A DNA stretch of 61,085 nt from Rhizaria sp. SCN 62-66. Its lineage: Eukaryota. The first letter of the stretch is position 1; each line of letters starts with the position of its first letter. The translations under genes were made by a program, and so were the position numbers. Below the pieces are notes generated by a model, which worked only from the letters and a program-made list of their open reading frames with translations, did not search any database and had not been told where the DNA came from. The stretch covers positions 124,001 through 185,085 of the forward strand of contig MEDY01000036.1 of assembly GCA_001724265.1 (NCBI GenBank), in the 5' to 3' direction. Shown here piece by piece: positions 15,637 through 61,085 of this stretch.

Positions 15637-15672
<36 letters not shown>

Positions 15673-28139: not shown

Positions 28140-28522
28140 GCGTTAGCGCGACAGCCTATCGCGCCACACACCAACGAGACGAGACAACAGAGAGCGGAGC
28201 GAAATGATGCAGTGTGAGTGATAATGTGAATAATAGACGATGTAATTTCTCCCAAATACCAAAAATAACGAGTTTAATTTGAGTTGTATTACCACATTTG
28301 TAATGACGGTCAGTTGCGTTCCTAGCACCTTGTCGATATCGTTGCCGTTAGGCTCCTCTCCCCTTAGCCTACCTGTTGCTGATATCTTCTGGCCCTTCCC
28401 ACTCTTCACAGCCTTCATTCCTCGCTTCCAAATCAAGTTCTACAAAGTTTAATAACCCGCCATTGACACTTTAACTACATCAGAGCTTTGCATACAGCTT
28501 ACCGTGCGGTGTCCGAGTGAAA
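28140..28522. promoter_or_regulatory. Probable bidirectional promoter between the head-to-head thioesterase-like and OSCP1 genes
   Basis: Only 383 nt of AT-richer sequence between two divergent start codons. No specific element identified. Confidence 0.4.
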
Positions 28523-40500: not shown

Positions 40501-41712
40501 AAGCTCACTGCCAGTCACGCCCACGGTGTCGGCGCCGTAGTGGGGGAGAAACGCGTTGCTGGCGGCCATCACAGCGGCAGCCGTGGCAGGCATTGACCGT
40601 GGGACAGACGAGGCCGCGGCCGAGACGTGGCTGCGCGGCGAGAGCGCGCGCGCGTGAGCGGTCACGGCGGCGGCGACGTCGGGGTTGGCGTGCAGCGCTG
40701 CGAGCGCGGCCGCGGTGTCGCCGGCGACGGAGACGGAGCCGTCGCCGGTGACGTCGTAGCCCCCGGCCGCAGCAGCGCCAGCAGCAGAGGCATCAATGAC
40801 GTTGTGAGCGGGCAGCGCGGGGACGGAGCTGGAGTCGGCGAGGGCGGCGGCGGCAGCGGCATCGAAGGCGTTGCGCGCCGCAATAGCAGAATCCTCGTCC
40901 TCCTCGTTATCAGCAGAACCAGCAGCAGCTCCAGCGCCAGCGGCGGTGTTGTTGGCATAGATGTTGGCGTAGCCGTACGCGTTGTTGTCGTCATCAGCGT
41001 CGTAGAAGGCAATGCCACTATAGTTTTCGCCTGAGCCAGTAGCATCGGCGCCGTTGCCAGTAAGCGCGACTGTGGGCTCGGCAGCGGACGTGGAGGTGGC
41101 GGCACCGGCGACGGCGCGCAAGCGAGACAACTCCAGGTCGGGCGAGCCGGGAGCCTCCGCAGCCACAGAGCCAGCGCGCGGGGGCGTGGTGGGGGCGACG
41201 CTGCTGCCGTTGCTCTGGTACTGTGACTCGGAGCGGGTGTTCGCCGCGTTGGTGTTGTTGCGGTTGATGTAGGTGTCGAACGAGGTCGACTCGTCGCTCG
41301 CGTAGCCGTGCGCAAATGTCGGCGACTGCAGCCCGTTAAACACGGCCGCCACAGGCAGCGACGGCATGTTGGCGGCACTGTTCGCGTTGACGCCTGCGTT
41401 CGCGGTGGCGTTTGTGGGGGCGAGATCGACGCTGACTTCGAAGGAGCGGTCAACGCCGGAGTGGGAGAAACTCACCTCTGCGTCCAGCGGGGTAGACGCG
41501 GCCTCACCGGGGGCAACCACAGTATCGGCGCCCGCGGGCTGTGGGTGAGCGTTGGCGGCGAGGGCCGGGTCCGCGGAGACCTCGTTGGAGGACGGGCGGG
41601 AGCGGCGCGCGGCCGCCAGAGAGGCGTCCATGGTCTCCACCATACGCTCGGTTTCACGGACGAGCTCGGAGAGAGACTCCATGCGCTTGCCTTGCGGCGT
41701 CTGGGAAGACAT
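34534..41712 (-). CDS. CEP70: Large (~2392 aa) intronless coiled-coil protein with a CEP70-like C-terminal domain; stop TAA
   Basis: Long heptad-rich region, then VVTHVQQLFAVTAPGGVIPKLNEVYLFTSQTQVALALLRDMLRL (about 35940-36130), which resembles the CEP70 C-terminal signature (HFQKLFDV..GV.P.MNEVY) as recalled. ATG at 41712 inferred. Confidence 0.65.
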   Translation of the reverse strand: MSSQTPQGKRMESLSELVRETERMVETMDASLAAARRSRPSSNEVSADPALAANAHPQPAGADTVVAPGEAASTPLDAEVSFSHSGVDRSFEVSVDLAPTNATANAGVNANSAANMPSLPVAAVFNGLQSPTFAHGYASDESTSFDTYINRNNTNAANTRSESQYQSNGSSVAPTTPPRAGSVAAEAPGSPDLELSRLRAVAGAATSTSAAEPTVALTGNGADATGSGENYSGIAFYDADDDNNAYGYANIYANNTAAGAGAAAGSADNEEDEDSAIAARNAFDAAAAAALADSSSVPALPAHNVIDASAAGAAAAGGYDVTGDGSVSVAGDTAAALAALHANPDVAAAVTAHARALSPRSHVSAAASSVPRSMPATAAAVMAASNAFLPHYGADTVGVTGSELHGNGGGNSDSSSSLSEVEASLAQYNNNNNPDDDGPVSGLSDCDDTHADPVVAAAVATMAAAVAAANAATGAANAEYPSHNGNNSSSSEDDDSVPFAGNNGYCDCENSSSSSGEGSNNCGNCAQINGNGNGVDAETSSSDSSQSGFSAVSSIRAPASAAKTSNNAASVANKRPSRVPYSPSSSSSSSLFTGDSSSSSSTSSTGNAALQRAFDAARQREATLATRLNFATTENARLRSDLVRAQGDCEQQRAALESLPTVTQWTRAQEGIASLTMQLNARNDAGTALSVAMARAVELEAQLRATESESRELDGAVARAERQGRRAAAAVQSELDALTKEFAIVSENFAATDRGLCAVAADFATAEQRWAERFAEVEARAARAEAELSLRPRAGDMAVATSVVHALNKHAGDAQLSAAQARAHGKEETDALRRKLAVAEADNAALRADLAASGGAGAMGDVGDIITELRAASAAERAAAETERARLAAAVAEAQRRAQAAEAEATALKVQLAARPEASAVEALRSQVAMAKAAAAQAKTALAARLDAVDSTSASLRADLARAASDLTAVRAELSARPTAQELADARAETDAARHAADAAARRAASELAEARERAAALTGDVKLLREEAASRKQERTVMEALREQVRTGAGREAELAAVTARLRQQERLVAELESRLATRPTLEDVKAVQDALAREKEAAASRVSAHAEETATLEAALKEDRTRVRELEQAVFELKQDLLSRPSQEEWAQRRAELAAAADEAAVARMTALQHSSRATAEAAATEARVQQLESENRALARQLSERPSADELAAVRKRAHELEVRLLEFVGRPGPRSPAQPQRPESEEVAALRERLVMLQTALDERPSVAASQELRDKADELLDHLQATERRAAAAEAAAAAEATARASETAALTDRLARVSAQAAALERRPTAAELEQARGEVAALRARVAQFDGVQEHLARVVRRTEKFEADARALRTELAARATPEDWARLKKVAAGLHARLAQADAEAAASVEALAAAKKEAAAHGEDAAALRGERESAQRARAARDSEVSELVTTMSDEIAALRSEVARARSERAADVAAAEAATRDAEAEAAALRAALTKVDAECARAAEELSRLPSEREWARARRKLAAAVAEAAEAAGRAAAAQDAAAAALARALAAEDELRSRPTMADVALADEVVAKLRAEVATLRGNIAEREGELGCTRAAFEEYRARTDAALSAARTQAAAATAAAATAGNVVEVRVPAGAAGNSLGGSPLAPRKPAEAFFVPLRDGNGVHVAALRNCSPALQASVARLSAGELATTVGSVAAALGLDDASAVAPTAARLAAAIPALQRKIRELSATARASNAACCECKTLPVTLNTNANGNANANANMISTSAVPAAVAPATAVTGPGGRAALVEDVYSKVYAELQRVFGTGAVAAWTATDLLAAVGTLLTSPVRATVAGSAGALSAADAAAVVTHVQQLFAVTAPGGVIPKLNEVYLFTSQTQVALALLRDMLRLTERAPLGTVVAAVRDLVLLINNKVSAGGSNDSSLSSGNSSDANTDAAGTAAAKSSSKSAGNAYDNKDDVAFIPARAAMGPHGVAFDITFANATAPHPSARPHHQYGAAHASAHAHASAAGNSSAGTRPATAGSRAAAHAAGAAPAAAPAHVAFADVSSSTSASSSSGLTDGNSSGSVSGTGGYYSYSPPAAAVTGVPSAEPATETVGFGADSNDFLISNNANSNGADGNLTNDNDSAASFSGLSDVTLTQQQPTITVTAAGTANNTTHHNTTAPGAGSGSRPYAVGSSPSRVAHAPRTGNGATVNANNAGAAADTEASASANNNLSDIDSKLAAIAANLTYTRPFTANSNNSAAPAAPLPKFDDDSDAAVLTGRSDAGAGFGALSSVGDDVDNAGDTENVNDGNDDAAAFDTVAPAAAAPAAVADGNEFEDEEDGQPQQQHFANPGSDSSAALDMTDSAYNAEPEPVTQAKDDAAAAASPADEGI

Positions 41713-42104
41713 AGTTTCGCAAGGACTGCCAAGGGGATGTGTGGGAGTGGAAGGTTCGAGTGGTCGGCAGACTGGAAAAGTGTCGAAGCTGAGAGGTTCA
41801 GCAAGAGGTGAAACGACCAGGAAAATATGAGCCCAACAATCTTTAATTGAAAAATTATAATAAATATAGCAGGCAATTTTGAAACATTCTGTGTGCATTC
41901 AAATTGATGATCAGATTGACGCATACTGGATCGAAACGAAGCGCCGTCGATCAGTCCACAACGGTCACTTTTCCATTTTTGCCGGTTCGTAAAAAACTGA
42001 TAGAGGAGCGAGCGACGGAGCGGCGGCGGAGAGAGATGAGGGTCCAAGTGCCGACTTGATCTCTTTTGCTCTTCGACTCAGGACATCCGTTGGCGCGATT
42101 GTAG
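41713..42104. promoter_or_regulatory. Probable bidirectional promoter between the CEP70-like and CK2 alpha genes
   Basis: 392 nt between divergent start codons. No specific element identified. Confidence 0.35.
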
Positions 42105-44360: not shown

Positions 44361-47300
44361 ATGCTGCGTCTTCGTCGTTTGAGTCGCAACGCGGCAGCTG
44401 CAACTGCAGTCAAGGCCACCGCAACAGTGCTCTCAACGACCACTGCCTCCACTGTCTCAAGCTCCAGCGGTATCTCCATCTCAACTGATGCATACAACAC
44501 AGCGGAGTCTGGTCCGAATGCGCACTATGCGCGCAGGGCTGGACTGTCCCGGGGCTATAGTCGTAGCTTGCAGTCTCAATCACTGATACTCCAGCACAAA
44601 CACCACTCGCACTCACTCTCACAGGCGCTTGCTCAGTCACCGTCGACGTCACAGGCACAGGAGCTGGAGCAGGTGCCGCTGTCGCAGCTGCACTTGCGCA
44701 TGCAGCGGCAATTGCAGCAGCAAGAGCTCCAACAATACCGCCATACTGCTCGCGCGAGCGTCAGTGACCCGACTGTTGCGGCGACGTGTTATGGCCCTGC
44801 ACTGCCCTCTGGTCCCGTGTCGGCAGCGACCGCATTCACAGCCAGTGCAAGCTCCAGTGTGGCAGTGAACAGCAATGGTAGTCGCAGGTTTGCGAGCACG
44901 TACGCGACCACCGACTCAGCCTCAGTCCCTGCTCAGACCTCCGCCGCTGCGGCTGGCGCTGCTGCTTCTGTCGCTTCCGGTAGTACTGCTTATCACCACA
45001 GCCACAGTCTCAGCCTGCACAGCCACAGCCACAGCATGAACACTCTCCACGGCACCCACAGCATCCACAGTCAAAGCGCCAGTCTTCACACCGGCCACAG
45101 TGGCCCCCCGTCTCCTTATTATAGCGACGCTGTGTTGCCGTCGCTGTCGCTGGCCGAGCGCCGCGCGCTGCTGCCGTACCTCGCCGCAGCGCTGTCTGCC
45201 CCTGCGCCCACTGCGGAGGCAGCCTTGTCTCCGATGTCGAGTGAGGATGGCTCAAGTCTAGCTGCTTCAAACAACAGCGACGCTCAAGCTAGCGCGATAG
45301 TTAATGATGAGTCTCACCTCTCACAACACGCGCTTGCAACCAGCAGTCGCCAACCAGACGCAACTGCTCGCGCCGATAGCCCCCACGGCCACCCCGTCAG
45401 CCACACTCACGACGACAACAAAGGCGACGGCGAGGACGAAAGCCACGACGCCGCCCACAGTCACGCGCGCAGCCACGGCTTCAGCAGCGGCGCGAGCAAG
45501 CGCGGCCGCCGCGTGCTTTCGCTGCCATTCTCCCCGCCGTCCCCGCGCCTCGCCACCGTGGCGCGCGCCGCCGCCACGTCCGTGAACCTGTACCTAAGTC
45601 AGGCCGCTTCGTACCCACTGCTGCCGCCGCTGCAGCGCAGCTCGCGCCGCCGCGCCCGCGCCCGCGCGCGGGCCAACGCGATTGCTGCGGCGGCAACTGA
45701 CGTGCTGTCGTTCCATCTCTTGCCACCGCTGCTGCCGCCTCTGTTCCCCCCTGCAACAACAACGGCGTCAACGGCGGCTGCTGCTGCGAATAGCAGCACT
45801 GCTGCTGGGTCGAGCGTCTCATCGGCTGTCGGCACTGCTACTGCCGGCGTTGGAGCTGCTGACGCCGCCGCGGCCAATACCGCCGCCATTGCTGCCGCCG
45901 CCGAGGCTGCTGCGCTGTGGGACGGCGGCGGCCGCGGACTGCCGCTGTCGCCGCGCCTGGTCCCCGAGGCCGCCGCCGACGCCGCCGCGGACGCTGTGGC
46001 CGTGCAGCGCGTGAACCGGCGTGTGGCGCGGCTGCTGCGGCGGGCGCGGCGCGCGCTCAGGACCGGCGGGCGCGCGGGGTAGCGCGCCGCGGCGGCGACG
46101 GCGGCGGCGGAGGCTGCGGAGGAAGAGGAGGAAGAGGAAGTCGCCGCCGAGGCCGAGGCTGAGGCGGAAGCTGAGGACGGTGGTGACCACAACGCCAGCG
46201 CTGCGACCGCTGCTGCTGCTCGTGAGGGCAACGCGCTGACCGCTACCGGCACTGCTGCTGGCGCTGCTGAGGGCGGTCTCGCTACTGCTGAGAAGGAGCA
46301 CTGGCAGGTGACGGAGGGCTACGACGAGCACGGTGAGCTGTCGCCTGATTCGCTCACGACCAGCGCACACAACAACGCTCAGACCAAGAAGAAGATTACC
46401 GAGGGCAGCACCGAGACCAAGACAGACCTTAGCACTGCTCGCAGTGACGACAATGCAGATGCTGCTTCTGGCGACTTAGCTGATGACGAGGCTGAGATTG
46501 CTGCTGTTTCGACGAAGAAGACGCAAGCTAATGGCAGCATTGCAGCGAGACTGAAGCCTCGTTTGGGTGCGGACGTTCAGCCGCACAAGAAACACGGCCA
46601 CACCCACAGCAACAGCCACCACGGGACTGCGCCGACACACGGCTCGATCCACAATCCCAGTCACGGCCACATTCACGGCCACAGCCACGGTGGTCATGGA
46701 CGCAATGTGCTGAAGGCCGACCGCGCCGCTGCCGCCGCCGCGGCTGCTGCAGTTGATCGTACCACCACCGCCGCGACTGCAGCGGGTACTGCGACCGCTG
46801 CGGATGCCGCTGCCACTAAGACTGCGGCCAACGTGGGCACAACGGCCCCCGCACCCCGCCGGCTCGCAGTCACGGTCAACAGCTTCCTTGAGCGCGCCAC
46901 CGCGGCCGCCGCAGCCTCCGCCTCCGCCGCGGCTGCCGCTTCGGCCTCCGCCGCCGCGGGCCGCGCGCGGTCCCGGGCCAGCGCCGCTACTGCCGCTGCT
47001 TCAGCCGCGGCGACGACCGCGACGAGCTCCCGCGCGCTTGCCAAGTCAGGCGTTGCGGGGGCTGCTAAGGAGGACGACAACGTGTCGACCTCGCCCTCAT
47101 CGTCTTCTAGGTACGGTTGATTGTTCTCAACATGATTTGTCATTTGATATCGATCTTTGTTATTTTCAATGTTTTCTTGAATTGATTTCTTAACACTCAC
47201 ACGTTTTTTGTCGCTTCGTTTTTTCTTGTATGATGTGTCACGAAACTCTTAGTTGGAGTTCAAGCAGCAGCAGCGACAGCGACGGCCCGTACTACTCTCT

Positions 47301-50300
47301 CGCCCGCCACCGCCGCTCATCTGTCGGCACACGCCGCGGCTACTTGCACGAGGCCCTCAAGCACTTACAGCCCTCCGGCGCCAATACTGCGACGTCTACG
47401 ATGACTGCGGCTAGGGCTGTGAATGGCTCGCGCCCGCCCCCGCTGGACCCGTGGGCGGTGGCCCCGCCGCTCGGCGCCGCGGCCACCGCGGCCGCGTCCT
47501 TCGCTGCAGCCGTGCTGTCCTCCGGCGCGTCCCCGCAAGACGTTGCTCTCCTCACGCACACGCCGCTGCCGCTGGGCGCGACGGCACCCGTGTCGTTGCG
47601 CGCCGCGCCCGCGCTGTTTCGCCGCGTGCGCTACAGCAACACGTCGCGCTCGGTGTACCTCTCCGGCGGCGGCACGCACGCGCACGCGCACGTGCAGCGC
47701 CGCCGCAACGCGCGCCGACTCCGCAACAGCAGCAGCAGCGCGAACATCAACGCTCACACCAACGCTGCGGTGCGGCTGCGCGGTGTCGGCGGCGGCGCGG
47801 CGGGGCTGGTGGCGAACCCGTACTCCGTGTACGACACGTCGGGCGTCTACCGCGGCGTCTCCGTCCTCAGTCCGAACAGAGACAAGGGCGCAAGCACACG
47901 CACTCGTGCCAGCTCCAGCGCTAGCAAGGCGAATCGTGGGGCTGCACCGAGTCATGGGGCCGCGGGTTGCTCGAGCGCTAACGGGTCCGTGGGCAGCAGC
48001 GGCAGCCGCGCGCCGTCTCTTTTCACACCGCGCTACCTCGGTCCGCTACACTCCGTCACTGGCGAGCTCGCGCCTCAGCCCTACATCACGCTCGCGCGCG
48101 CCGCCGCTGCTGCGGCCGTAGCGGCTGCGGCTGAGGCAGCGGCGCGCGCCCCGTCGCCGCGCGCGGACACGCTGTTCGGCTCGCTGTCGCCCAAGGCGTT
48201 CCCGCGCCTCAACATTCTGCAGTGGGGCAGCGACAGCAACGGCAACGACAACAGCAGCCACGCTAGCGCTACCGGTAACATGAGCAATACCAGTAGTCTT
48301 ATTGGCGGTCTTGTTGTCGACGACAAGGCTGCGAACGCGGGTCTGTCCTATGTGCAGCAGCATCTGCGCAACGAGGAGGCCAAGTATGATGCAGAGCAGC
48401 TGCAGAAGCAGCAACAACAGCAGCAGCGCGGCATTGCGACGGCCGCGCGGTCCGCAGTCACCGCGGCCCCCGCCGCGCTGTCTCTGACGCGCTCGCGCCC
48501 GCCTGCAGCCTCGTCGTCGAGCACCTCGGCCTGGGTGCGCCTCGGTCCCGGCTCTTCTTATGCGACGACGAACTGCGCCAGTGCGGAGACCGACGCAGAT
48601 GGCACTGGTCTCACTGCTGCTGCTGCCGCTCCTGCTGTTCACCGGAACAGCGCCACCACTGCGAACGGCCCCGCCTTCAGCTCTATCGCGGACGGCCGCG
48701 GCCGGCTGTCGCGCGCACGCTTTCTCTCCTCGGACCCCCGCGTGCGCGCGCGCCAGCAGGGCCGCTGGTACCGCGACCCCGAGACAGGTGCAATCGCACA
48801 GGCCGCGCCCTTTGAGCGCTGCATCGCCGCCGCTGCTGCGGACGCCGATGAGACGGCTGTGGCGGCGCCGTCGTCGTCCACCGCTACTACCACAGCTGCT
48901 GCGACGACCACCACCGTGACGGCGACGACGACGACCGCTGGCGGTGTCACTGCGAGCGCGACCGAGACGACACAGACTGCGCAGCAGCCGACTCATGCTG
49001 CAGCTGCGACAGCATCGACGGCCTTGGTGCCGCGCCGCACTGTGCACTACCCTCCGTCGCCGCCCCCGGCCTGGGTCGCCCCGTCCCCGCTGCTACCGCC
49101 GCCGCTGGTCAATGCCGCGGCCACGATCTACACGCACGGCACTGAGGCCTTTGCGGCCATGTGGCGCTCGATGGCCTCTGCGCAGCGCGAGATTCTGATC
49201 GAAACGTACGTGCTTGCGGCTGACGACACCGGCATGCGCACGCTGCAACTGCTCACGGCCGCCGCGGAGCGCGGCGTCGACGTCGTGCTGCTCTACGACG
49301 CATTCGGCTCTTCTTCTGAGCTCGTCGATTTCGCAGACTTCACCCCGCTGCTGCGCGCCGGTGGCCGCATCGTGTCATTCAACAGCGGCGTCACGCTCAC
49401 GCGGTCGCCCTTTTTCAGGAACCACCGCAAGAACCTAGTCGTGGACGCGCGTGTGGCCTTCACTGGCGGCATGAACACCAGCAACGAGTACAACTCGTGG
49501 ACTGCGGAGCACGGCAGCAGCTTCAATGACGTGCATCTCCGCGTCGTCGGTCCCTCGGCGCTCGATCTGCGCGCCAGTGTCATCGAGTCGCTCCGTGAGT
49601 GCGATTTCCCGACCGACTCTCTGATGCCGGCCGAAGCGGCTGCGGATCAGTCGATCGACGTATGGCGCGGGCCTGTGCCTGCGTTCGCGAAGAAGCAGAT
49701 CAAGGCGACCGGAAGCCGACTCGTCTGGCTACCGTCTTATACAGCCAGCAGCGCGATTAGTAGCTTAAGCAGCCCAGCGACTGATGCTGCGGCTGCTGCG
49801 AAAGCTGCACATTTGCTACCACAGTTGATCCCACCGTCGTCTCAGTTGCCGCCGGAGTTCGTGGTCGACATGGCGCTCCATGACGACCCGCGGCCCGTGT
49901 CGCACTGGCGCCGCGTCTGGGTGCGCGCGCCCCTCGCCGCCGCGCAGAAGGCCGCTCTCGACCAGCAGCTCGCGCTGCAGGTTGAGCAGGAGCGCGTTCA
50001 CAAGCAGCAGCGGCTGGCGCTGCTGCAGGCGCGCAGCTCCGGCGACCCCGCCGCGATCGCCGCCGCCAACGCCGCGCTGGCGACTGCGGCTGCGCACGCG
50101 GCACCGCACGCGCGCAACGCCAAGGAGGCGATCTCGCCGACGTGGGGCACGTTCTTCCGCTTCGAGCGCACGCTCAAGGAGCTGCGGTCCGTTTTCACCG
50201 GCAGAGGCCCGCTGGCGCTGGCGCGCGCCGCCGCCGACTGGCGCGCTCGGCGCCGGTCGGAGAAGCGGGCGCGGCAGCGCGTGGCGCGCGCGCAGGCTGA

Positions 50301-53300
50301 GATCGTGGCGAGCGCGCGCGCGCGGCAGCAGAGGCAGCAGCAGCAGTTGCTGCAGCAAGCGGTGCTGTCCGCTAATGCGGCCCCGACGACGACGACCCCC
50401 CCTGCGAATGCAAGCAGTCACACTGCGCAGAAGGTGACCGCTGCTGTTGACGCGAGCACGAACGTATCTGTGACTCCCGCGCCTGCTGTGGAAACTGCAT
50501 CGACACAAGTATTGACTTTGAGTCACGCGCCTCTGGCTCCAAGTGGCTCGAGAACCGTCGTGACTTCGACTGCGGCAGAACCTTCGCATCCGGCCGCAGC
50601 GACGCATGCGACGAGTGCTGGTGACTTGCCGTCTCGCGGTGCGCGCCCGCGTCGCGCCCCGCGACTGCTGCGTCTCTCGCCGTCGTCGCAGGCGCGTCTC
50701 CTGATTGGCAATGACTGCGAAAGCTTTGATGACCCTCATGATTCCAAGAGCATGGCTAGCTCAAGCACTGGGAACAGCGTCAAGGATGACAAGCATCGTC
50801 GAATCGTAATTGAGGACAGCGTGAGCCTCAATGTGCCGTCATCTGCTTCACATAACACTGACTTGTCTGTTTCTTCCACTCAGGCTCCTAAGGCTTCTGC
50901 TACTGCTGCTTCTAACGTCGTGCCTCAGACGACTGCCCCTGTTGCCTCCACAACAGCGTCAGCTGCAACGCAATCGACATCGATTCCTTCGGCTGCCCCC
51001 ACGAGCACGAACACGACTGGAGAGCTGCCGCAGCGCCACAAGCCTGCACAGCGCGCTTCGACTGCACTGCCCGTGGTCGCCACAAGTCCACCCAACGCGC
51101 TGCCCCCCGCTGTGCCCGCAACGGCAAAGCCCACGTTGACGCCTGACACTCCCACCGCTGCTGTCGCCCACTCCGCTCCGGTTGCTTCAGCAAGTTCTAC
51201 TGCTGCTGCGGCCACATCGTCTGTCACTCCTACGCACGCGACTGGGGCCGCACCCGCACACGCCTCTGTGCGCCAGCATCAGCCCGCACGTTCGCCCGCC
51301 CAGTCTTTATCGACTGTGTCCGCATCTGTGCACTCAGCTACACCTGCATCTACCCCTGCGCCAGCGCCTGCGCCCGCGCCCCGCGTGTGCTCCGCGTCCA
51401 CCCGCGCCCCCGCAGCGCCGGTCACCGTTGCCGACCAGCTCTTCTTTACCACCGGCATGACCAACGTGCGCGGCCTCGCCGGCAAGCCCCTGCGCGCGCT
51501 GCGCACCCTCGCGCCGGCGCCCGCGATCGCCGCCGTGGCCCTCGCCAGCGGCTGCGACGCCGCGGGCGTGGCCGTCACAGCCGCGGCGGTCGGCGCCGCG
51601 GTGGACGTGCTGCGCGCCGACGCCGACCTGGCGCGGCTGGAGGACCCCTCGGCGGCGGCGCAGCACGGCGGCGGCGCGGCGGGCCACGGCCCCGCGGTCG
51701 TCGTTTCCCCCGCGGCCGCGCAGTCGTCGCTGTCGCCCGCAGGCGGCGCGGTCGCGGGCTCCGCCGCCGCGGCCGCCGCCGCAGCCGCCGCGGCCGCCGC
51801 TGCCGAGGCCAAGCTGCCGCTGCCGCAGCGCGTGCGCCGCGCCGTGGGCCGCTGGGCCTCCGCGCGCGCCGTCGCGGTGACGCGGCTTTTCTTCGGCTCC
51901 ACCGGCGCCGCGCGGCCTCGGTACCCCGGGCGGCGTTACACCGCGCGCCGGCTCACGTACATCCTCACGGGACGCTTCGGCACCACCGCGCGCGGCAAGA
52001 ACAGCATCAGCAGCGCGAGCAAGAAGGGCGGCCCTTTGGGTGCGTCTGGCTCTGTTGCCGCCGTGTCACCTGGCGCTGTGGAGGCTGCGACAGCTGCTGT
52101 CTTGCGCGGCGCCGCCGACACGGGCAAGAGCAAGGGATTGTCCTCTCTGCGTGCGCGTGTGCACGAGTGCTACTCGGCGGCTCTGGCGACCGCGAAGTCG
52201 CGCGCCGTGGCTGCGGTCGCGCGCGGGGTTGCTGGCGCGTGGGCCGCGATGCCGCGCTGGGTGCGGGGCAGCAAGCTGGCTGCGAGCATGAAGGCGCGTG
52301 CCGATAAGACTGTCGCCGCGCTCGCCAAGTCCCGCTTCTGGGGCGATGGCTCGGACAAGTACACTGCCTCGCTTGGCGCATCTTGCTCTGGCCGCGATGG
52401 CGCGGCAGACTCTCTTGCCGCCGCAGCGCCGACCGGTGCTGCCGCGGCCGCCTTTGCCGAGGGCGTGCGCACCGCGGCCCTGCTCCCCGCAGCGCCGCTG
52501 ACGGCGATCAGCGTGCCACTGCAGACGCTGCAGTCGAACTCGGCGACGGGCGACCGCGCGATCCAGGCGTTCCTGCACCACGCCATCGCCATGGCGCGAG
52601 ACACGCTGTGCTTCACCAACCCGTATGTCGTGCCGCCAGAGTGGCTCAAGCAGGCGCTGTTTGACGCAGTCAAGCGCGGCGTCGAGGTCACGCTTCTCAC
52701 TGCAGGTACGCTTTTTATTTATTTATTTGAAATAACCATCCGTTTTTTTTTCTGTCTACATGTCATGTTATGTTTGATTTGATGTTCCTTCATTTCTATT
52801 CGTCATTTTCTCATGCGATCATTTGAGCTTTTCTTTTGATTTGACAGGCCCCTACTGCAGCGACGTGCCCGTGGTGCGCTGGGCGACGGTGCACACGTAC
52901 TCGCAGTACCTGGACAACGGCGTTCGAGTTTTTGAGTACAACGGCCCCCGCACTCTGCACGCTAAGACCCTCGTCATCGACGGCCAGATCGCCTGCGTCG
53001 GCTCCTTCAACCTGGATCTCTACTCGGCGCTGGTGAACCTCGAGACGATGGTCGTGATCCCGCCCACGGTCACCCCCGTCTCGCACCTGCATGCGCACCC
53101 GTCCGCGCATCCCGGCGGCGCCACCCACGCCGGCGGGCTCTCGGCCGCGGTGGCCACGGTCACCCCGCGCCCGCCCACGGTCACCAACCCCGTGGCGACA
53201 TACCTGCTGGAGAAGTTCCGGTCCGACCTGCACTCTTGCCACGAGGTCACCCGCACCGACCTGGCGGCGTGGCCGCTGTGGCAGCGCGCACTGGTCCGCA

Positions 53301-56254
53301 CTGCGCACTTCTCCGTCATCACCGTCTACCGCCTCGCCACCGTGTCCCCCCTGACGATCCTGCTGTCTGCCGTGGCCAAGGCGCGCGACGGCCTGCCCGC
53401 GCCGCCGGCCTCGGTCCGTCGCGCGCGCGCGCGCCGCCGCCGCGCTGAGCGGGTGCGTGCGCTCGGCCTCCGCTTCCGCCGCGGGCTGCTGCGCGCGTTG
53501 GGCACCGTCCACAGCGCCGCGGCGCGCATCCGCGCGGTTAGATCCTCGGTCGTGCCCCGCAGTGTCTCTGATGCCGAGGGCGGCGTCAGCGTCACCGATG
53601 GCGCTGCGGTTACGTCCGCGCCTGCCTCTGCGCTGGCGGGCGGCGCGGCCGCGTGGGTTGAGGGGCAGAGTAAGCGCATCCGCCGCGCTCTTGCCGCGGC
53701 TGCTGCGCTGGCGAAGAAGACCCGGTCGCACGCGTCTTCGTTCACCGCGAGCACCAGTGACGCCAGTAGTGTCGCTGTTGACGTTGCTGGTAGTGACAAG
53801 TCGGGGCACGGCCTCACGTTAAACAGCACGTCGTCGCAGCAGCACCAACATCAGCAGAGTCAGTCTGGCGCGGCCCCCATCACCGCTGCCGCCGCCGCGC
53901 TCGCCCGCGCATCCGCCGCCGTCGCCGCGCCGGCGCCCAGCAGCTCTCTCACCATCGACGGCGAGGAGGCCGCGCCCGTGGCATACGCGCCCCGCGTGCG
54001 GAACCACTTCTTCGCCGACATCTTCTCGCTGCTGGAGCTGGGCGCCATGCTGCGTGGGTCGCACCGCGCGCTCGAGTACGTGCTCTCGCTCTCGCAACAC
54101 AACGCGACCGGCCACGGCCGCAACAACGGCGGAAGCAACAGCAACAGCAGCAGCTCTTCTGCGGTTGTTGCGACCCCGCCCCCGCTGCGGTCCCCGCTAC
54201 CGCTGGTGCCCGCCCTCTCGATGTCGCTGTCCGCGCTCGCGCGCCTGGGGCTGCGCGGCGCGCGCGCCTCCGTGGTGGGGCCCGCAACGGTCGCCGGGCA
54301 TGGGCTCGGCCTAGTGTCAAACGTTGGCGTCGGCATGGGGCACGCGCGCGTCTGGCTGCCTGCTCCGAACGCGAGCTCTAGCGCGGTCGCTCATGCTCAA
54401 ACTAAAGCGGATAGCACGAACGCCGTGAATGCGAGCCAAAGTCAGAGTGCCAGTCCAGGTGCGAGTGCGCATACAGCTAGTGCGTTGGTGCCAGTGCGCG
54501 TGCCATATTTCCTGCCCCTGTCCGCGAACGCCATCTACCCCGCGGCGACAGTCACTCCCGTCCCCGCCTCCGCCGCGGCGGCCTCCGCTGCCGCGGCTCT
54601 CACCGCGGGCGGCGTTGTCCCCACTGGCTTCTCCCCCGCGCTGCCGCCGCCGCGCGCGCTGCCCATCGCCGCCGCGACCGCGGCCCCGCTCGTGGCGGCG
54701 TCATCGCTTGTCGCCGTCGTCGAGGCCGAGCTAGGCAAGGTGCACCGCGCCGCGTTCAAGGCCGCCGACGTCATCATCGCCACGCATAACAGGGCGCTGG
54801 CGGCGCACGCGCAGTCCCCGTACGCAGTCAGTGATGCCGGCGTCGGCGCCGCGTCGGCATGCGGGACCGTGGTGAGCGCCGCCGACTCTGCCGCAGCGCG
54901 CGCGCTCACCTGCAGCCAGGCGCCGTACGCGTCGGTCACGCGCGTGCTCGCGCTGGCCGCGGCGTCCCCGTCGCAGGCGCACTTCCTGCCCATGGCGCTC
55001 TCGTTGGCCGCGCCTATCGCGCCCGTGCTGGTGCCGGCGCCGCTGCTGCCGCGAGAGGCCAGGCCCGCGCGGGCGGTCTCCGGCAGCAATAGTACGGTCG
55101 CTGAAGGCAGTAACGGCTGCTGGACTGTCAACAGCTGCAAGCGCTCTGACACTGGCGCCGCCGCTGCGGGTGCGCTCGACTGCACCGCGGTCGCGGCTGC
55201 GACGATCGTGACTGACTGCGGCAGCGTCACCGCCGGTCTCGGCGGCAGTGGCGGCGAGGCAGGTTGCGTGACGGGCGGCGTGTTCCTCGTGACTGAGGAC
55301 GCGGTGGACCCCACGACGACGGCCGCAGTGGAGACGATCGCGCTGCCGTACGCGCTCGCAGCGACGCTCACGCACAACTCACAGCGCGCGCGCGCACTCG
55401 CGACGGCGCAGGCGGGCAGCAAGGCTAGCGGCCGGGATTCGAGCAAGACTCTTAGCGCTAGTGTAAGTACCTGCTTAGTCTATGGCCCCACGACCATGGA
55501 CGCTCTCGAGGCCGCAGTCGACGCTGCCGTCGTAATCACGCTCTCCGAGGCCAAGCCGTCGTCCAACGCGTCTGACGCGAAGGCATCTCCTTCACAGTCG
55601 CACACCGGCTTTGGCTCTGCAACCTCCGGCGCGGTGACTGTTGCGGAAGTTAGGCCACCCGCGAAGCGTGTGCTGCAGTCGCTGGCCTCACACCCCGGTC
55701 TGCGGGCCGCGGTGGCGGGTCAGGATGACGACGACGCCGAGGCCGGGGTTGGCGGCAAGCTCTGGACGCTCACCAAGCTCACAGGCAGAGTGATCGCACG
55801 CAAGGCAGGCCAGCTCTTCAGCACGCTTCTCGCCAGCGCCCGCTCCGGCTCCGGCTCTGGTAGCCGCGCCGGCGGTAGCTCGACCGAGTTGACTGTGGCC
55901 AGCGCGGCGGACCGCGAGGCAGACGCGGTTGGCGCGCAGGCCTACGAGCTCGCGGCCGACCTCGCGTGGCGGCTCGCCACAGCCTCGCAGCGGCAGCTCG
56001 ACCGCGCCAGATCGCGTGGGCGGCTGTGGGCGTACCGCACGACGCTCCCGCTGCGGCGCCAGCTCGCGCGTGCGGAGCGGCGCATCGTGCAGTGGCTACC
56101 TGTCGAGGAGCGCCAGGGGTACCGCAAGCAGCGGACGGACGCGCGCCGTCGCAAGGAGGAGGATGACGACGCCGCCGAGGAGGAGGAGGAAGCCCGTGAG
56201 GGCCGCGTCGGCAAGGGACGCATCGGCCCCAAGGAGAGCAAGTGGTTCTATTAA
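44361..56254 (+). CDS. PLD-superfamily (bacterial Cls-type) cardiolipin synthase-like protein, ~3869 aa, with probable mitochondrial presequence. Exons 44361-47110 (in-frame TAG at 46080-46082), 47253-52705, 52848-56254; stop TAA
   Basis: HKD1 RNHRKNLVVDARVAFTGGMN (49423-49446) preceded by AQREILIETY..D..G..L..AAERGVDVVLLYDAFGS. HKD2 TLHAKTLVIDGQIACVGSFNLD (52958-52981) preceded by FTNPYVVP..AVKRGVEV. Both introns join in frame. N-terminus MLRLRRLSRNAAAA is presequence-like. The 5' part of the model depends on reading through the TAG. Confidence 0.75.
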
Positions 56255-56715
56255 TGCTCAGCACGAGGTGATGCTGTGTTACAAGTTCCAACATGGACAA
56301 CTCTTGCTGTTTTCGTAATTTATTGAACGCGTCTAATGACGCACACAGTTATATATACCTTGATTATAATTTATTATTCACCAAATACATATCTACATCC
56401 GTGTTCAGTCTGTATTGTGCATTTTTTAATGTGAGCGTTATCCACGTATGCATGATTCACCCGCTTTCCCGGTGGCAAGGCAACGGTTGGCGAGCAACAA
56501 CTTTCGAAAGTTTGAAGTTTGAACACATGGGCTGCCTTGCAGAGTCGTCAAATAGTGATGCCACGGAGTAATAAGATGTGATCAATGGCATAAACATCGA
56601 GAATTAAATTATATTTTGAAATGACTTCTTATACATGCAGATATGCACCGAGGTAATTCGTGCCTCACTCACATCAATCCTGCCATTTCTCTCTCTTCCT
56701 TGTTGACAGCCCACG

Positions 56716-59700
56716 ATGTTCCCCGGAACCATGGGTCCCTCCCGCCCACCTACGACCTATCAAAACTATGGGGCTTCGGTGTCCGAGTCATCCGCAGCGA
56801 ACGAGCTGCTCGAGCAGGCCTTCGCGCTGCCGCTGACGCCGCACCACCTGGCTGTGGCGCTGCTTGTGCAGTCCTGCGGCGTCGACCGTACCATCGCGCG
56901 CACGCAGCTGCGCCGCCCACGCTCCGCGGACCGTGACCCCGCGACGGCCGTGGCTTTTGCCAAGCTCGCCGTCGCGCACCACCTCATCGCGCACGCGGAC
57001 TCGCTGCTCCTGCTCAACACCAACACCAACGCCAAGACCACTCAGAACATGAGCAGCTTTGCCAACACGGCGAACACGGAGGCGAGCGCGGGCAGTCGGG
57101 CGCGCGCCGGGATGACCTTTCTCCCTATTGCGGCGCACATGTTCCACACACTGCCACCGGCCTTCGCGGTGGCTGTGAGCCGCGTCATCTGCTCCGAGCT
57201 GGCCTCGCTCGCCGCGCCCTCGGCCGCCGCTCTGCCCCAGCTCGCGCTCGCGCCCCCGCCCACCGCCGAGCGCCCGCCCCCGCGCAACACCAACAGCAAC
57301 AGCAATGCCGCTGTGACTACTGCTCCGTCCGGGGCCCCGCTGGCGCTGCTGGTCTCCTCCCTCGTCGCCCTCACCGACGCCACCTCCTCGCTCTCCGCTC
57401 TCGGCGCGCAAGACGCCGTCACCGCCGCGGTCGCGCTGGCCGCGGTCCCCGCCGCCACCGCCGCCGCGCTGGCCGCGGGCGCGGTGCCGCCGCTTGCGGC
57501 GCACCCGTTCCATCTGCTGCGCGCCAACGCGCTTCACGCGCGCGCGCGCTCCGCCGCCTCCGTCGCCGCCTTCGGGGCCTCCGCGGCCGTGGCCGAGGCC
57601 GCCGCGGAGGACGTGGCCGCGGCGACGGCGACGCCCGTGCTCGTCCCGTTCGCGATGCCCTCTGTCTTCTCGGCATACTTGCGCGCGGTGGCGGCCCGGG
57701 CCGCGCGGCTGAGCCCCGCGTAGGCCGCGCTGCTCGCGGGCGCCCTGCGCGTCTACGCCGACGTTGACCTCGGCGTGGCGCGCGCGAGCGCCCACGGTCA
57801 CTCTGCTGCCCACGGTCAGTCTCAGTTGTGGAGTCTGCCTGAATTGTATCGCAACAGCACCACTGCGGCCACTGACTCTACGCGCAGCTCCAGCAGCGCT
57901 CGTTCCAGCTCGAGGACGAATTCGGCCAATGATGACGACGATGACGATGACGAAGAGTATGCGGAGTACAGCGGCTACGATGACTGCGGCAGCGACGACG
58001 ACGACGACTTGGACGGCGTCGCAGCCTGGCACGGCTCCCTCTTTCCCAGCACACTTGCACTGGGCAGCAGTCGCCCCACCGCCGCCGCTGTCGCCCCGCG
58101 GCTTCTGCGGACGCCGCTGCCGGTGTATCCGGCGCCGCACGCGCCGCAGTCGCTATGGCAGCTCCCCGTGCCCGCGCTTGCGCTCGCGCTGGCGGGGCTC
58201 GCCGCGCGCCCCGCGGCTCTGACCGGCCGCTGGTGCAGACACAGCAGCAGCACCACGAGCTGTGACTCCCGATCCCAGTTGCAGTCGCAGTCACTGCTCT
58301 CGTGTGTGCAGTTGGCGCTGGCGCAAGCCTTGCAGCCCCGGCGTCCGATGACGCAGGTCGCACTGCTCCGCAGTGAGGATCTTAACGACCTGCATGCAAC
58401 AACACACGCATGCGATGGCGGAAACAGTTGTGGTGGCAACAGCTCAGTGTACGCGTACTCGCCTCTAATCACACACCAACGCGCTCACACTTCATCGTCA
58501 CAGTTGCAGTCGCAGTCGCCGTCCGCAGCAGTGCTGCCTCCTGCGTTCGCCGCGTACATGGCCGCCGCCACCCACACGCACCGCCACCTCTCTGCCGCGT
58601 ACGCACGTGACTACGATTTCAACACCAGCAGCACCACACCAGTGGGCTCGTTCAACCGCAACACCGCCGCGCTGGTTCCGAGCCCAATCCCGTTCTCGCC
58701 CGCCGCGGCGCCCACCGTGCTGCTGCTGCTGGCGACGCTGCTGGGCCGGCGCCGGTCCCCGCGCGCGGCGCTCGCTAGGCTGGCCGCGCTCGCTCTCGCG
58801 CGCGCCAGCGAGGCGTCGCCGCTGTCGCAGGCCGCAGCGGCCGCCGCGTCCACCGCCGCCGCGGGCTTCCACAACAGCGACCTGCTCGCACACCGCCAGC
58901 TCGCGCTGTTGCTGCGCTCTGCGTCCAAGCAGCCCGCAGGCGCCGTTGCCGCGCTGCTGCGGGCCGCGGTCGCGCTGCGCGCCGGCGCCCCCGCCGCGGC
59001 CGCGGCCGACGCCGCGCTGGCCGTGGCGCTGGCCGACGCCTCGGTGCTGTCGACGCTGGGCACCGTCACCACGGCCGCCGCGGTGGGCGCCGCCGCGGGC
59101 GACCCTGCCGCGCGGCACTCGGGCGGCGCGTCCCCGGCGGGCGCCACGCCCGTGCTCGTCGCGGACCTGCCGCGGCTGTTGTCGGGCGCGCCGCCCGCGG
59201 CCGCGACGCCGCCCGCGCACCTGGCCGCGGCCGCGGGGGCGGGCGCCACGGCCGCGCGCGGCGGGCTGCGGCTGGGCTCGCTGGGCGGCGGCGTTCTGCC
59301 CGTCGTCGCGCTGCTGCCCGCGCTCGTCTCGCTCGCCACGCTCGCGCCCGTCACCGTCACGACGACGACCAACGCCAGTGCAGCCACATTCTCTGGCACC
59401 GGCGCTGCTGGCGCTGCTGGCGGAGGCGGCGGCGGCGGCGCGAAGGCGGCCGGGTACGCGCCCCCGCACGCGCACGGCGCGCGCGCGTTGCTGTCGCTCT
59501 CGGCGCTGCTCACGGTTTCCGCCGCGTCCACCGCCGTGGCGCTGCATTGGGCCGACCACCACCGGTGGACCGACGCGCTGGCCGCCAAGACCGCGCTGGC
59601 AGCGGCGGCGCAGCTAGCGGCCGAGGGGCTGGGCGCGGCTTTCGACCTCCTGCGCAGCAACGATGGCAAGACCGTCGCCGAGGCGATCACCGCCGTCACG

Positions 59701-61085
59701 GCCCGCGCCGCGCTGCCCGCCGTAATGGTCGCCGCCGCCACGGCCGCCGTTGCCTCGGCCACGAGTGCCGCGAGCGGCGGCCCTAGTGGCGGGGCGGGGG
59801 CGGTCGGCGCGGGCAGCGCTGCGGCAGGCGTGTCGTCACTGGGCACCGGCATCGCTACGACTGGCCCCGCCGCGGCCGCCGCGCTGGAGGCGCTGCTCGC
59901 GCTCGCGCGGCCCGCAACCGCCGCCGCCATCGCCTCGGTGCTGGCCGCCACTGCCGCCGCATCGACGGCAGCAGGAGTGCACACCAGCGCGACCCGGACG
60001 CGTGCCACGGCCGTGGCGGTCACGCGCGCGGTGTCCCTGGCGCTGGCCGTGGCCGATCGCGCCGCGCACGGGCACCGGCTCGCGCGCGCGGGCGCCGCAC
60101 TGGGGCCGGGGACCGCGCTCGCCGCGCCGCTGCCGGGCGCCGTCGCTGCGGCGGCGGACGACACGCTCGCCACTGCCGCGGCCGCTGCTGCTGTGGCCAT
60201 CAGCCAGGGCTCCGCAACGGCCGCAGTTGCCGCGCTGGCCGCAACGCGCGCTCTCTCTGATATCAGCGGCGGCGGCAGTGGCGGCGGCGGTAGCGCGCTG
60301 CTGCTGTCGCCGGTGCTGCCGCTGGGCGTCTACTCCCCGCTCGCGCTTGCCACAGTTGCCGCCGCGTCCCTCACCCCCGTCGGCGCTGCCGCTGCCACGG
60401 CCGCGACGGCGCCGCTGCGGCTGGCGCTGGCGCCGACGGCCACGACCACTCTGGCCACGCCCGCCGGCGCCCTGGAGGTGACCGTGGGCGCGGCGCTGGC
60501 GGCGCGGGCCGGCGCGCTCTGGCGCCTCGGCCACCGCGGGCCCGCGCTCGTGGCCGCCCGGCTCGCGCTCGGCGGCCGGCCCCTGCCGCTGCGCCTGCCC
60601 CGCGCCGCTCTCTGCAGTAACGGCGACGGCATGTTGCCGACTGCGACAGCGACAGCACCTAGTGTGCGCCTGCGCGTGCTCGCGCGCTGCTCGGCGCGGC
60701 CGACCGCTGCCGCGCGCGCCGCCGCCGCCGTCGCTGCATACGCGGCGGCAGCGACTCTGGCTGGCGGCACCGGCACTGGCCCCGCGGCTCCCGCCGCGTG
60801 CCGCGCTGTCCTCGCGACTGTGGGCAACGCTAGTGACCTAAGTACCCCCTTAGACCAGCTCGCGGCGCTCTCTGCACAGGGCAGCGCTGACGACGACGAC
60901 AACTCGGTTGTCAAGCAGCTTGTGCCTGCCACCGTTGCAACGCCGATCGTGACTCTGAGCAATGGCTACGATCTCGCCAGCAACAGCGCTAGCTCCGCGA
61001 CTGGTGATCAGATGTCGTCGGCGCTCGCACTTAGCGCCCTCGCCGCCCCGGCCGCGGCCCGCGCCCGCGCCAGCGCTGCCCCGGC
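56716..61085 (+). CDS. ANAPC5: Anaphase-promoting complex subunit 5-like protein, partial (runs off the window), in-frame TAG at 57721-57723
   Basis: LTPHHLAVALLV near the N-terminus, SVFSAYLRAVAARAARLSPA*AALLAGALRVY, and RAGALWRLGHRGPAL (about 60505-60550) resemble APC5 blocks as recalled (VTPYKIAVLVL; SVVGLFLR..KLSFSQVFKLYTALQQY; TAIWRLYGR). The frame appears stop-free from 57724 to the window end. Confidence 0.6.

What the first reader, a model, noticed from the sequence alone, without database searches (positions are those of the whole stretch)
57661..57760. In-frame TAG inside a conserved block of an APC5-like gene, at a position aligning with Gln
Seen: ...SVFSAYLRAVAARAARLSPA[TAG]AALLAGALRVY... 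with an uninterrupted frame downstream that includes another APC5-like block near 60520. From memory, human ANAPC5 reads SVVGLFLRHMILAYSKLSFS-Q-VFKLYTALQQY, which places Gln at the TAG in an ungapped alignment. APC5 is a core APC/C scaffold subunit, so a truncated 335-aa product is unlikely to be tolerated if this is the only copy. This is the best local clue to the amino acid encoded by UAG.
Basis: partly seen in the sequence, partly recalled or inferred. Interest (0 to 1): 0.8.

Follow-up and report, generated by a model that had tools for sequence, protein, structure and literature searches.

The report
In-frame TAG in two protist genes
A TAG stop codon really sits inside a long, otherwise intact gene of an uncultured wastewater protist, and a neighbouring gene shows the same thing, so this organism may read TAG as an amino acid; but the gene is not recognisably APC5 and the amino acid cannot be told.

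Summary
Frame +1 is open from ATG 56716 to the window end, 1456 codons, with one stop: TAG at 57721-57723. Codon bias, GC3 and amino-acid make-up are the same on both sides, and there is no AT-rich spacer.

No tool finds APC5: Pfam, PDB sequences, a 1.84-billion-protein phmmer search and the ESM Atlas all gave nothing, and the AlphaFold model was unusable. The Gln assignment therefore has no tested basis.

The window does hold a second case. TAG at 46080 lies in exon 1 of a three-exon phospholipase D gene (44361-56254). Its frame continues through a canonical intron into the conserved PLD exons.

Introns here are AT-rich and begin with GTACG. No such site lies upstream of either TAG where it could remove it.

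None of 9 judged gene ends uses TAG (6 TAA, 3 TGA).

Against a settled reassignment, four large ORFs totalling 8902 codons hold no TAG, whereas known UAG-sense lineages use it in about 80-90% of genes.

Best reading, about 0.45: UAG is decoded or read through at low usage in a GC-rich, possibly cercozoan protist. The main rival is recent nonsense alleles. Raw reads across the TAG, the rest of the genome, a tRNA(CUA) and eRF1 would decide.

The parts
56716..61085 (+). Coding frame of an alanine-rich, mostly helical orphan protein. It spans 1456 codons in the window and runs off the 3' end. There is no canonical intron in it.
   Evidence: Translation. Stops per frame. GC3 frame plot. Codon log-odds. 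Polymorphisms at 58236, 58947 and 60765 are all synonymous third-position changes. The parts before and after the TAG have the same composition.
57721..57723 (+). In-frame TAG, codon 336 of the gene. The context is gcg TAG gcc.
   Evidence: Present in the X1/X2 contig covering 55192-59020. The 335-aa ORF ending here was seen on 6 contigs. No GTACG 5' splice motif lies on the + strand between 55348 and 58449.
56255..56715 (.). AT-rich intergenic spacer between the PLD gene and this gene, given for contrast with the GC-rich DNA around the TAG.
   Evidence: GC is about 0.34-0.52 per codon position in the windows across 56200-56799. It is listed as a low-GC run.
44361..56254 (+). Phospholipase D gene model with three exons: 44361-47110, 47253-52705 and 52848-56254. 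It has 3869 codons and ends in TAA.
   Evidence: Two HKD/PLDc domains lie in exons 2 and 3. The splice junctions were read from the sequence. The joined CDS has a single internal stop.
46080..46082 (+). Second in-frame TAG, codon 574 of the PLD model. The context is ggg TAG cgc.
   Evidence: The downstream stretch 46083-47117 has 0 stops in frame against 4-19 in the other frames, and no in-frame ATG. The next Met is residue 967.
47111..47252 (+). Intron 1 of the PLD gene: 142 nt, AT-rich, with boundaries AG|GTACGG...CTCTTAG|T. The TGA at 47118 lies inside it.
   Evidence: Removing it keeps the reading frame.
52706..52847 (+). Intron 2 of the PLD gene: 142 nt, AT-rich, with boundaries CAG|GTACGC...TTTGACAG|G. 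It separates the two HKD halves.
   Evidence: An independent run, X4, covers 52653-52923 with 0 differences.

Best explanation
56716 to beyond 61085 is one protein-coding gene for a long, alanine-rich, helical protein with no detectable relatives. It is not demonstrably APC5.

The TAG at codon 336 is a genuine base triplet in the DNA, inside the coding frame. The most likely reading is that ribosomes of this organism do not treat UAG as an efficient terminator. It would be decoded, by a suppressor or near-cognate tRNA, or read through at a useful rate, so the full-length protein is made. The TAG at codon 574 of the neighbouring PLD gene would behave the same way.

UAA and UGA remain the terminators. 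UAG use is very low and so far seen only in fast-evolving, low-complexity parts of genes. This fits an early or low-efficiency stage better than a settled reassignment.

Shown: the TAGs, the frame continuity, the gene models and the intron rule. Inferred: that the TAGs are translated. Unknown: which amino acid is inserted.
For: 1. Two TAGs in GC-rich, coding-like DNA.
- A window-wide scan for stops whose own frame is the best of six on both 80-codon flanks gave 4 hits: TAG 46080, TAG 57721, TAA 7910(-) and TGA 4312(-). A run with 50-codon flanks added TAA 12195.
- The TAA and TGA hits all lie in AT-rich segments. Those at 7910 and 4312 are XRN1 introns.

2. The frames stay open downstream. 57724-61083 has 0 stops against 10, 24, 10, 10 and 23 in the other frames. 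46083-47117 has 0 against 5, 19, 4, 6 and 12.

3. The downstream ORFs are not independent genes.
- No in-frame ATG lies in 46083-47110, and the first ATG after 57721 is at 58348.
- There is no AT-rich spacer, although every intergenic stretch or intron seen in the window is AT-rich.

4. Splicing does not remove the TAGs.
- 7 of 7 introns found by eye in XRN1 and PLD start with GTACG and are AT-rich, roughly 130-220 nt.
- An eighth intron, at 47111, was found by searching for the motif.
- On the + strand, no GTACG lies between 55348 and 58449, and none lies between 44900 and 47111.

5. The frame after TAG 46080 runs to a canonical 5' splice site. It then joins in frame to the homology-supported PLD exons, giving 3869 codons with one internal stop.

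6. TAG ends 0 of 9 judged genes. TAA ends six: 1479(-), 12858, 24066, 30680, 34534(-) and 56252. TGA ends three: 34238, 43552 and 26043(-), the last tentative.

7. All 3 of 3 variants seen downstream of TAG 57721 are synonymous. The probability is 0.045 if they were random transitions.

8. The base calls look reliable. Two JGI contigs of the same organism match the window at 3940 of 3940 bases. Run X4, from another study, matches every listed piece with 0 differences.

9. There is precedent. UAG-only sense codes with UAA and UGA as terminators are known in a cercozoan-related rhizarian, in Iotanema and in phyllopharyngean ciliates (abstracts and passages). The window's XRN1 groups with the cercozoan Mataza.
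Against: 1. Usage is far below any known UAG-sense lineage.
- There are 0 TAGs in 8902 codons of four large ORFs and 2 in 13,176 codons of seven confident models. Only 2 of about 10 genes carry one.
- By contrast, 78-91% of genes carry UAG in reassigned ciliates, and I. spirale has 204 UAGs in 126 genes.
- Those four ORFs were chosen because they are open, but they do end at AT-rich borders.

2. Neither TAG lies in a conserved block, so there is no alignment evidence that either is translated.

3. There is no tRNA at all in the 61 kb, and eRF1 is not available.

4. The RNA evidence is silent. The listed polyA-RNA contigs of X5 cover 57387-57623 and 58764-59054 but not the TAG.

5. The only contig shown to span TAG 57721 comes from runs that may be the source sample, at about 6x depth.

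6. The upstream flank of TAG 46080 scores weakly as coding: 0.12-0.26, with the next-best frame at 0.16.

7. Zero of 9 TAG terminators is weak on its own, about 0.08 if TAG normally ended a quarter of genes.
Confidence: 0.45

Rival explanations
1. The code is standard, and both TAGs are recent nonsense mutations. They could be truncated or dying alleles, or one haplotype of a diploid or asexual organism. The products would end at codon 336 and codon 574, and PLD might still be made from an internal start.
For: - Both TAGs lie in non-conserved, low-complexity parts of the genes, and neither protein has a homologue.
- 8902 codons of other ORFs carry no TAG.
- In a genome with GC3 of about 0.9, most single-base nonsense changes would give TAG, because CAG, GAG, AAG, TCG and TGG are the common neighbouring codons (codon counts).
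- Met967 and Met1260 lie upstream of the first HKD domain, so a shorter PLD is conceivable.
Against: - Two such events in about 10 genes and 61 kb would imply an implausible load.
- Both would have to be very recent, because 1120 and 3295 codons downstream remain free of any further stop or frameshift, and the PLD introns are intact.
- The variants downstream are 3 of 3 synonymous.
- No alternative allele was listed at either site. Only 57721 lay in the stretch that was laid, and contigs can hide variants.
- This reading does not explain why TAG ends 0 of 9 genes.
Confidence: 0.27
2. The T of one or both TAGs is a base-calling or assembly error in very GC-rich, low-coverage DNA.
For: - Depth of the spanning contig is only about 6.5.
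- Both Ts are isolated in GC-only surroundings.
- X1 and X2 look like one data set filed twice.
Against: - The same 335-aa ORF is on record from 6 contigs in three sources.
- X1, X2 and X3 hold 0.99-1.00 of the sampled words of 56500-59000.
- 3940 of 3940 bases agree between the window and two JGI contigs.
- The listed X4 pieces have 0 differences.
- An error rate high enough to create two stops would show up elsewhere, and it does not.
Confidence: 0.08
3. TAG 57721 is the true end of a 335-aa gene. The open frame behind it is a separate gene, or is not coding.
For: - Gene callers recorded the 335-aa ORF as a protein.
- An in-frame ATG exists at 58348.
- GC-rich DNA gives long chance ORFs, as the many antisense ORFs show.
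Against: - The 208 codons between the TAG and ATG 58348 are open and have GC of about 0.65-0.75, which is unlike any spacer in the window. Within the 80- and 150-codon flanks they score as coding in the same frame.
- The frame has 0 stops in 1120 codons against 10-24 in the other frames.
- Both halves have the same amino-acid make-up.
Confidence: 0.07
4. The TAG is removed from the mRNA, either by an unusual GC-rich in-frame intron (for example GT at 57720 to AG at 57833, 114 nt) or by RNA editing.
For: - GT lies directly at both TAGs (g|gTAG).
- An AG in the right phase exists 114 nt downstream of 57720 (read).
Against: - The sites read GTAGGC and GTAGCG, whereas all 8 recognised introns start with GTACG, are AT-rich and run roughly 130-220 nt.
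- The candidate intron is coding-like, with GC3 of about 0.83 by my count.
- No joint at this place is among the 15 joints shown. A further 240 were not shown.
- Nuclear U-to-C editing is not known in such organisms (from general knowledge).
Confidence: 0.05

Closest known systems
Nuclear codes in which UAG alone is a sense codon and UAA and UGA terminate. Examples are Rhizaria sp. exLh (Leu) and Iotanema spirale (Gln) in PMC5304391, and phyllopharyngean ciliates (Leu or Gln) in PMC11687900.
   Same: - In-frame TAG lies in otherwise intact genes.
- Terminators seen here are TAA (6) and TGA (3) and never TAG, with TAA preferred, as in those lineages.
- The organism is possibly rhizarian.
   Different: - Usage is at least ten times lower: 2 TAGs in about 13,000 codons, and 2 of about 10 genes, against 78-91% of genes or 204 UAGs in 126 genes.
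- No TAG lies at a conserved position.
- No suppressor tRNA was seen and no eRF1 was examined.
- The amino acid is unknown.
Programmed stop-codon read-through giving C-terminally extended isoforms, such as retroviral gag-UAG-pol and the read-through genes of insects (from general knowledge; not checked in a paper here).
   Same: A single stop in an open frame, with a long coding-like extension behind it.
   Different: - The extensions here would be 1120 or more codons and 3295 codons, and would hold the main body of the proteins, including both PLD catalytic motifs.
- No known read-through context or downstream structure was looked for.
Amoebophrya sp. ex Karlodinium veneficum, in which reassigned stop codons are used unevenly (PMC6394959, passages seen).
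   Same: The reassigned codons are absent from about half of the transcripts. This is a precedent for patchy use.
   Different: All three stops are reassigned there, and the genome is AT-biased. Here only TAG is involved and use is rarer.
APC5 (ANAPC5), a scaffold subunit of the anaphase-promoting complex.
   Same: Both are long, predicted all-helical proteins (low confidence).
   Different: No profile, sequence or feature match was found by any tool. The protein is at least twice the usual APC5 length and is 28% alanine.

Membership tests
APC5 / ANAPC5 | Match to an APC5 family profile in Pfam | tested here: not met
hmmscan of the whole read-through protein at E up to 1 gave no APC5 hit. HMMER's filters can drop very weak, biased matches.
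APC5 / ANAPC5 | Sequence similarity to APC5 chains of solved APC/C structures | tested here: not met
   phmmer against 177,635 distinct PDB sequences at E up to 10 found no APC5 chain. Queries were the whole protein, residues 1-455, the 52-aa block and residues 22-100.
APC5 / ANAPC5 | N-terminal helical domain plus TPR superhelix fold | tested here: inconclusive
   The AlphaFold2 single-sequence model of residues 1-375 had mean pLDDT 40 and pTM 0.23, so no fold search was run. The Atlas model had pLDDT 0.41. The nearest feature clusters scored 0.82 or less and none was APC5.
APC5 / ANAPC5 | Single orthologue in a genome that encodes the other APC/C subunits | not testable with these tools
   No genome is held for this window.
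Nuclear code with UAG as a sense codon (UAA and UGA as stops) | In-frame UAG in intact genes, confirmed in the DNA | tested here: met
   Two cases, at 57721 and 46080. The first was confirmed in Logan contigs of possibly the source sample.
Nuclear code with UAG as a sense codon (UAA and UGA as stops) | UAG at conserved alignment positions with a consistent amino acid | tested here: not met
   Neither protein region has any homologue. The conserved genes of the window carry no TAG.
Nuclear code with UAG as a sense codon (UAA and UGA as stops) | UAG never used as a terminator | tested here: met
   0 of 9 judged gene ends use TAG (6 TAA, 3 TGA, one tentative). The sample is small.
Nuclear code with UAG as a sense codon (UAA and UGA as stops) | Widespread use of UAG across genes | tested here: not met
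   2 TAGs in 13,176 codons of seven models and 0 in 8902 codons of four large ORFs. Known cases carry UAG in 78-91% of genes.
Nuclear code with UAG as a sense codon (UAA and UGA as stops) | tRNA with anticodon CUA, or an altered eRF1 | not testable with these tools
   There are 0 tRNA genes and 0 Rfam matches in the window.
Phospholipase D (HKD superfamily), for the neighbouring gene | Two HKD (PLDc) motifs in one polypeptide | tested here: met
   PLDc_2 and PLDc match in exon 2 (E 2.5e-14) and in exon 3 (E 2.3e-11). They are joined in frame by removing intron 52706-52847.

The most novel reading that the evidence does not exclude
An uncultured, GC-rich, possibly cercozoan protist of wastewater reactors is caught at an early, low-usage stage of a UAG stop-to-sense change. 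UAG has already vanished as a terminator, yet it appears only rarely, in fast-evolving low-complexity parts of genes, including the N-terminal extension of a phospholipase D.
Probability: 0.3. Interest if true: 0.8.

Novelty: new member of a known kind. Interest (0 to 1): 0.5.

Why it matters
Changes of the nuclear code that affect UAG alone are known from only a few lineages, and all of those are seen after the new meaning is in wide use. A lineage in which UAG no longer ends genes but is still almost unused as a sense codon would show an intermediate state that models of codon reassignment predict but that is rarely observed.

There is also a practical consequence. Gene callers run with the standard code cut these genes. 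The public protein record holds only the 335-aa stump, so proteins of this organism are truncated in the databases.

If the TAGs turn out to be nonsense alleles or errors, the finding is ordinary.

Tried and rejected
Homologue searches that found nothing useful:
- The word-indexed search of residues 1-760 gave none among proteins of 800-2548 aa.
- Full phmmer of residues 1-1200 against 1.84 billion representatives found only the window's own 335-aa ORF.
- The read-through PLD exon 1 found none.

Locus searches with residues 290-640:
- Metagenome contigs, genome contigs and viral contigs each gave 0 confirmed loci.
- The XRN1 query found only two short contigs of the same organism that lie inside the window.

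Family and structure look-ups:
- Pfam, PDB and the Atlas gave nothing for APC5.
- AlphaFold2 gave pLDDT 40, so no fold search was made.

RNA and genome resources:
- There were no tRNA genes and no Rfam matches.
- No genome is held for the window.
- Earlier findings of the scan returned nothing in three look-ups.

Laid runs:
- The listed pieces of the independent runs X4 (unknown kind) and X5 (polyA RNA) do not cover 57721, so they say nothing about the TAG or about transcript ends there. 7494 pieces and 240 joints were not shown.
- All runs are contigs, so depth and absence carry no weight.

Scans and scoring:
- The first codon score, taken against base composition, could not separate sense from antisense frames and gave no hits when the best of six frames was required. 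It was replaced by a sense-versus-other-frames score.
- A scan with 30-codon flanks gave three further TAG hits on the minus strand (17266, 12589, 12391). These are antisense to plus-strand genes whose own frame scores higher, so they were rejected as artefacts.

Organism:
- Rosculus vilicus, a sainouroid with a genome, has 37.7% GC and so is not this organism.
- The searches for Rhogostoma and for Cercozoa genomes gave nothing on codes.

The supplements of the cited papers were not seen.
Full report
**What is there**

The window is eukaryotic DNA from bioreactor and wastewater metagenomes. Exons are GC-rich, with GC3 about 0.8-0.98. Spacers and introns are AT-rich.

In the frame that starts with ATG 56716, the sequence is open to the last base of the window, 1456 codons, with one stop: TAG at 57721-57723.
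- This frame has no other stop in 335 codons upstream and 1120 codons downstream.
- The other five frames have 1-8 stops upstream and 10-24 downstream.
- GC3 stays highest in this frame without a break across the TAG.
- A codon score trained on four long ORFs of the window, scoring sense against the other frames, is positive and best in this frame on both sides for flanks of 80-300 codons. At six true gene ends the downstream score is negative in every frame.
- The parts before and after the TAG have the same unusual make-up: Ala 26.9 and 28.4%, Leu 11.0 and 12.5%, Ser 9.0 and 9.5%.

**Is the TAG real DNA?**

- A 3829-base Logan contig of runs X1 and X2 covers 55192-59020 with no difference from the window. 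These runs may be the source sample, may be one data set filed twice, and have depth of only about 6.5.
- The exact 335-aa product ending at this TAG is on record from 6 contigs in three sources.
- Two JGI contigs of the same organism agree with the window at 3940 of 3940 bases.
- Every listed piece of the independent run X4 has 0 differences.
- No listed piece of X4 or of the polyA-RNA run X5 covers the TAG itself. X5 contigs lie on both sides of it, at 57387-57623 and 58764-59054.

The TAG is therefore probably real, but it has not been confirmed in a sample that is clearly independent.

**APC5**

Nothing supports it.
- Pfam gave no APC5 family for the whole protein at E up to 1, nor for six pieces at E up to 10.
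- phmmer against all PDB chains gave no APC5 chain at E up to 10, whether for the whole protein, the first 455 residues, the 52-residue block around the TAG or the N-terminal 79 residues.
- The best PDB match of the block was an unrelated formylmethanofuran dehydrogenase subunit (E 0.03). This illustrates how easily such Ala- and Leu-rich helices match by chance.
- A full phmmer search of 1.84 billion representatives found only the window's own stump.
- The Atlas gave only sub-threshold helical-repeat leads, the best at 0.82.
- The AlphaFold2 model had pLDDT 40.

The protein is best called an alanine-rich helical orphan. The Gln assignment rests on recall alone.

**The wider window changes the picture**

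Introns follow a strict rule in this organism.
- Six introns of the XRN1 gene and one in the PLD gene, all found by eye in AT-rich gaps of homology-supported genes, start with GTACG. They are roughly 130-220 nt long, AT-rich, and end in YAG.
- Searching for that motif showed an eighth intron at 47111-47252.

Removing introns 47111-47252 and 52706-52847 joins three exons into one frame of 3869 codons ending in TAA. This frame carries both HKD motifs of a phospholipase D.
- The frame has a single internal stop, TAG at 46080-46082, which is codon 574.
- The 345 codons between that TAG and the intron have no stop, against 4-19 in the other frames. They have no ATG, and they score as coding at 0.46-0.57.
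- The upstream flank of this TAG scores more weakly, at 0.12-0.26.

A window-wide scan found only these two stops in GC-rich, coding-like context. The other hits, TAA and TGA, lie in AT-rich segments; two of the three are seen XRN1 introns.

No GTACG lies on the plus strand between 55348 and 58449, or between 44900 and 47111. Canonical splicing therefore cannot remove either TAG.

**Terminators**

I judged gene ends as an ORF end that abuts AT-rich DNA with no preceding splice motif. Of nine such ends, six are TAA and three are TGA, one of them tentative. None is TAG.

**Weighing the explanations**

Two intact genes out of about ten each carry one TAG and nothing else wrong.
- Fresh nonsense mutations are hard to reconcile with this. 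Both would have to be very recent and the load would be very high.
- The three variants seen downstream of TAG 57721 are all synonymous (p 0.045).
- Sequencing error is made unlikely by the agreement between assemblies.

Against a settled reassignment:
- Known UAG-sense lineages carry UAG in 78-91% of genes (PMC11687900, section 10), or 204 times in 126 genes (PMC5304391, passages).
- Here 8902 codons of four large ORFs have none, and seven models with 13,176 codons have two.
- Patchy use has some precedent. [quoted passage not shown] The reassigned codons are absent from about half of Amoebophrya transcripts (PMC6394959).

I therefore favour, at about 0.45, that UAG is decoded or read through in this organism but is little used. 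Recent nonsense alleles follow at about 0.27, error at 0.08, separate genes at 0.07, and removal from the mRNA at 0.05. The residue inserted cannot be inferred from this window.

**The organism**

- The best named match of the XRN1 piece is Mataza sp. D1, a cercozoan, at 61% identity.
- I made a quick tree of 28 rows that I picked from the 120 listed hits, themselves drawn from 3000. It holds only one named rhizarian and was rooted at the midpoint.
- In that tree the window groups with an unnamed JGI protein (SH-aLRT 99). The pair sits inside a ten-row clade with Mataza (SH-aLRT 98).
- This is a single-gene hint, not a placement. It matters because the one known rhizarian with UAG as a sense codon is cercozoan-related.

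**Verdict**

The APC5 and Gln reading is not supported. The underlying phenomenon, in-frame TAG in intact genes of an uncultured protist, is real enough to deserve a genome-wide test.

Noticed in passing
window 44361-56254: The phospholipase D gene is much longer than the ORF list suggests. It has three exons joined by two 142-nt introns, giving 3869 codons. It also has a 1550-residue low-complexity N-terminal extension that carries the second in-frame TAG (46080).
   Followed up: yes
window 3150-8100 (minus strand), 47111, 52706: All recognised introns begin with GTACG (GTACGT, GTACGC, GTACGA or GTACGG), are AT-rich, run roughly 130-220 nt and end in YAG. An extended 5' splice consensus this strict is typical of intron-poor eukaryotes and is a handy signature for binning this organism.
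   Followed up: partly
window 24114 and 43577 (plus strand): GTACG followed by AT-rich DNA lies 46 and 23 nt after the TAA and TGA that end the RCC1-TBC gene and the kinase gene. These may be 3'-UTR introns or chance.
   Followed up: no
window 1479-8100 (minus strand): XRN1 gene with at least six introns. Its nearest named relative is the cercozoan Mataza sp. D1 (61% identity). The nearest relative overall is an unnamed JGI metagenome protein with a similarly odd composition.
   Followed up: partly
window 13599-24068: A single 3489-codon intronless ORF that combines RCC1 repeats with a C-terminal RabGAP-TBC domain. A second giant ORF of 2454 codons lies at 34534-41898 on the minus strand and has no family match.
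   Followed up: no
window 57634-57789: The 52-residue block around the TAG gives a chance phmmer hit (E 0.03) to formylmethanofuran dehydrogenase subunit C in the PDB. This is a warning about short alignments in this alanine-rich proteome.
   Followed up: yes
window 24500-28200: A poorly resolved region with short ORFs on both strands and several minus-strand GTACG sites (26711, 27448, 27727, 27741). It is probably a multi-exon minus-strand gene. No gene model was made.
   Followed up: no
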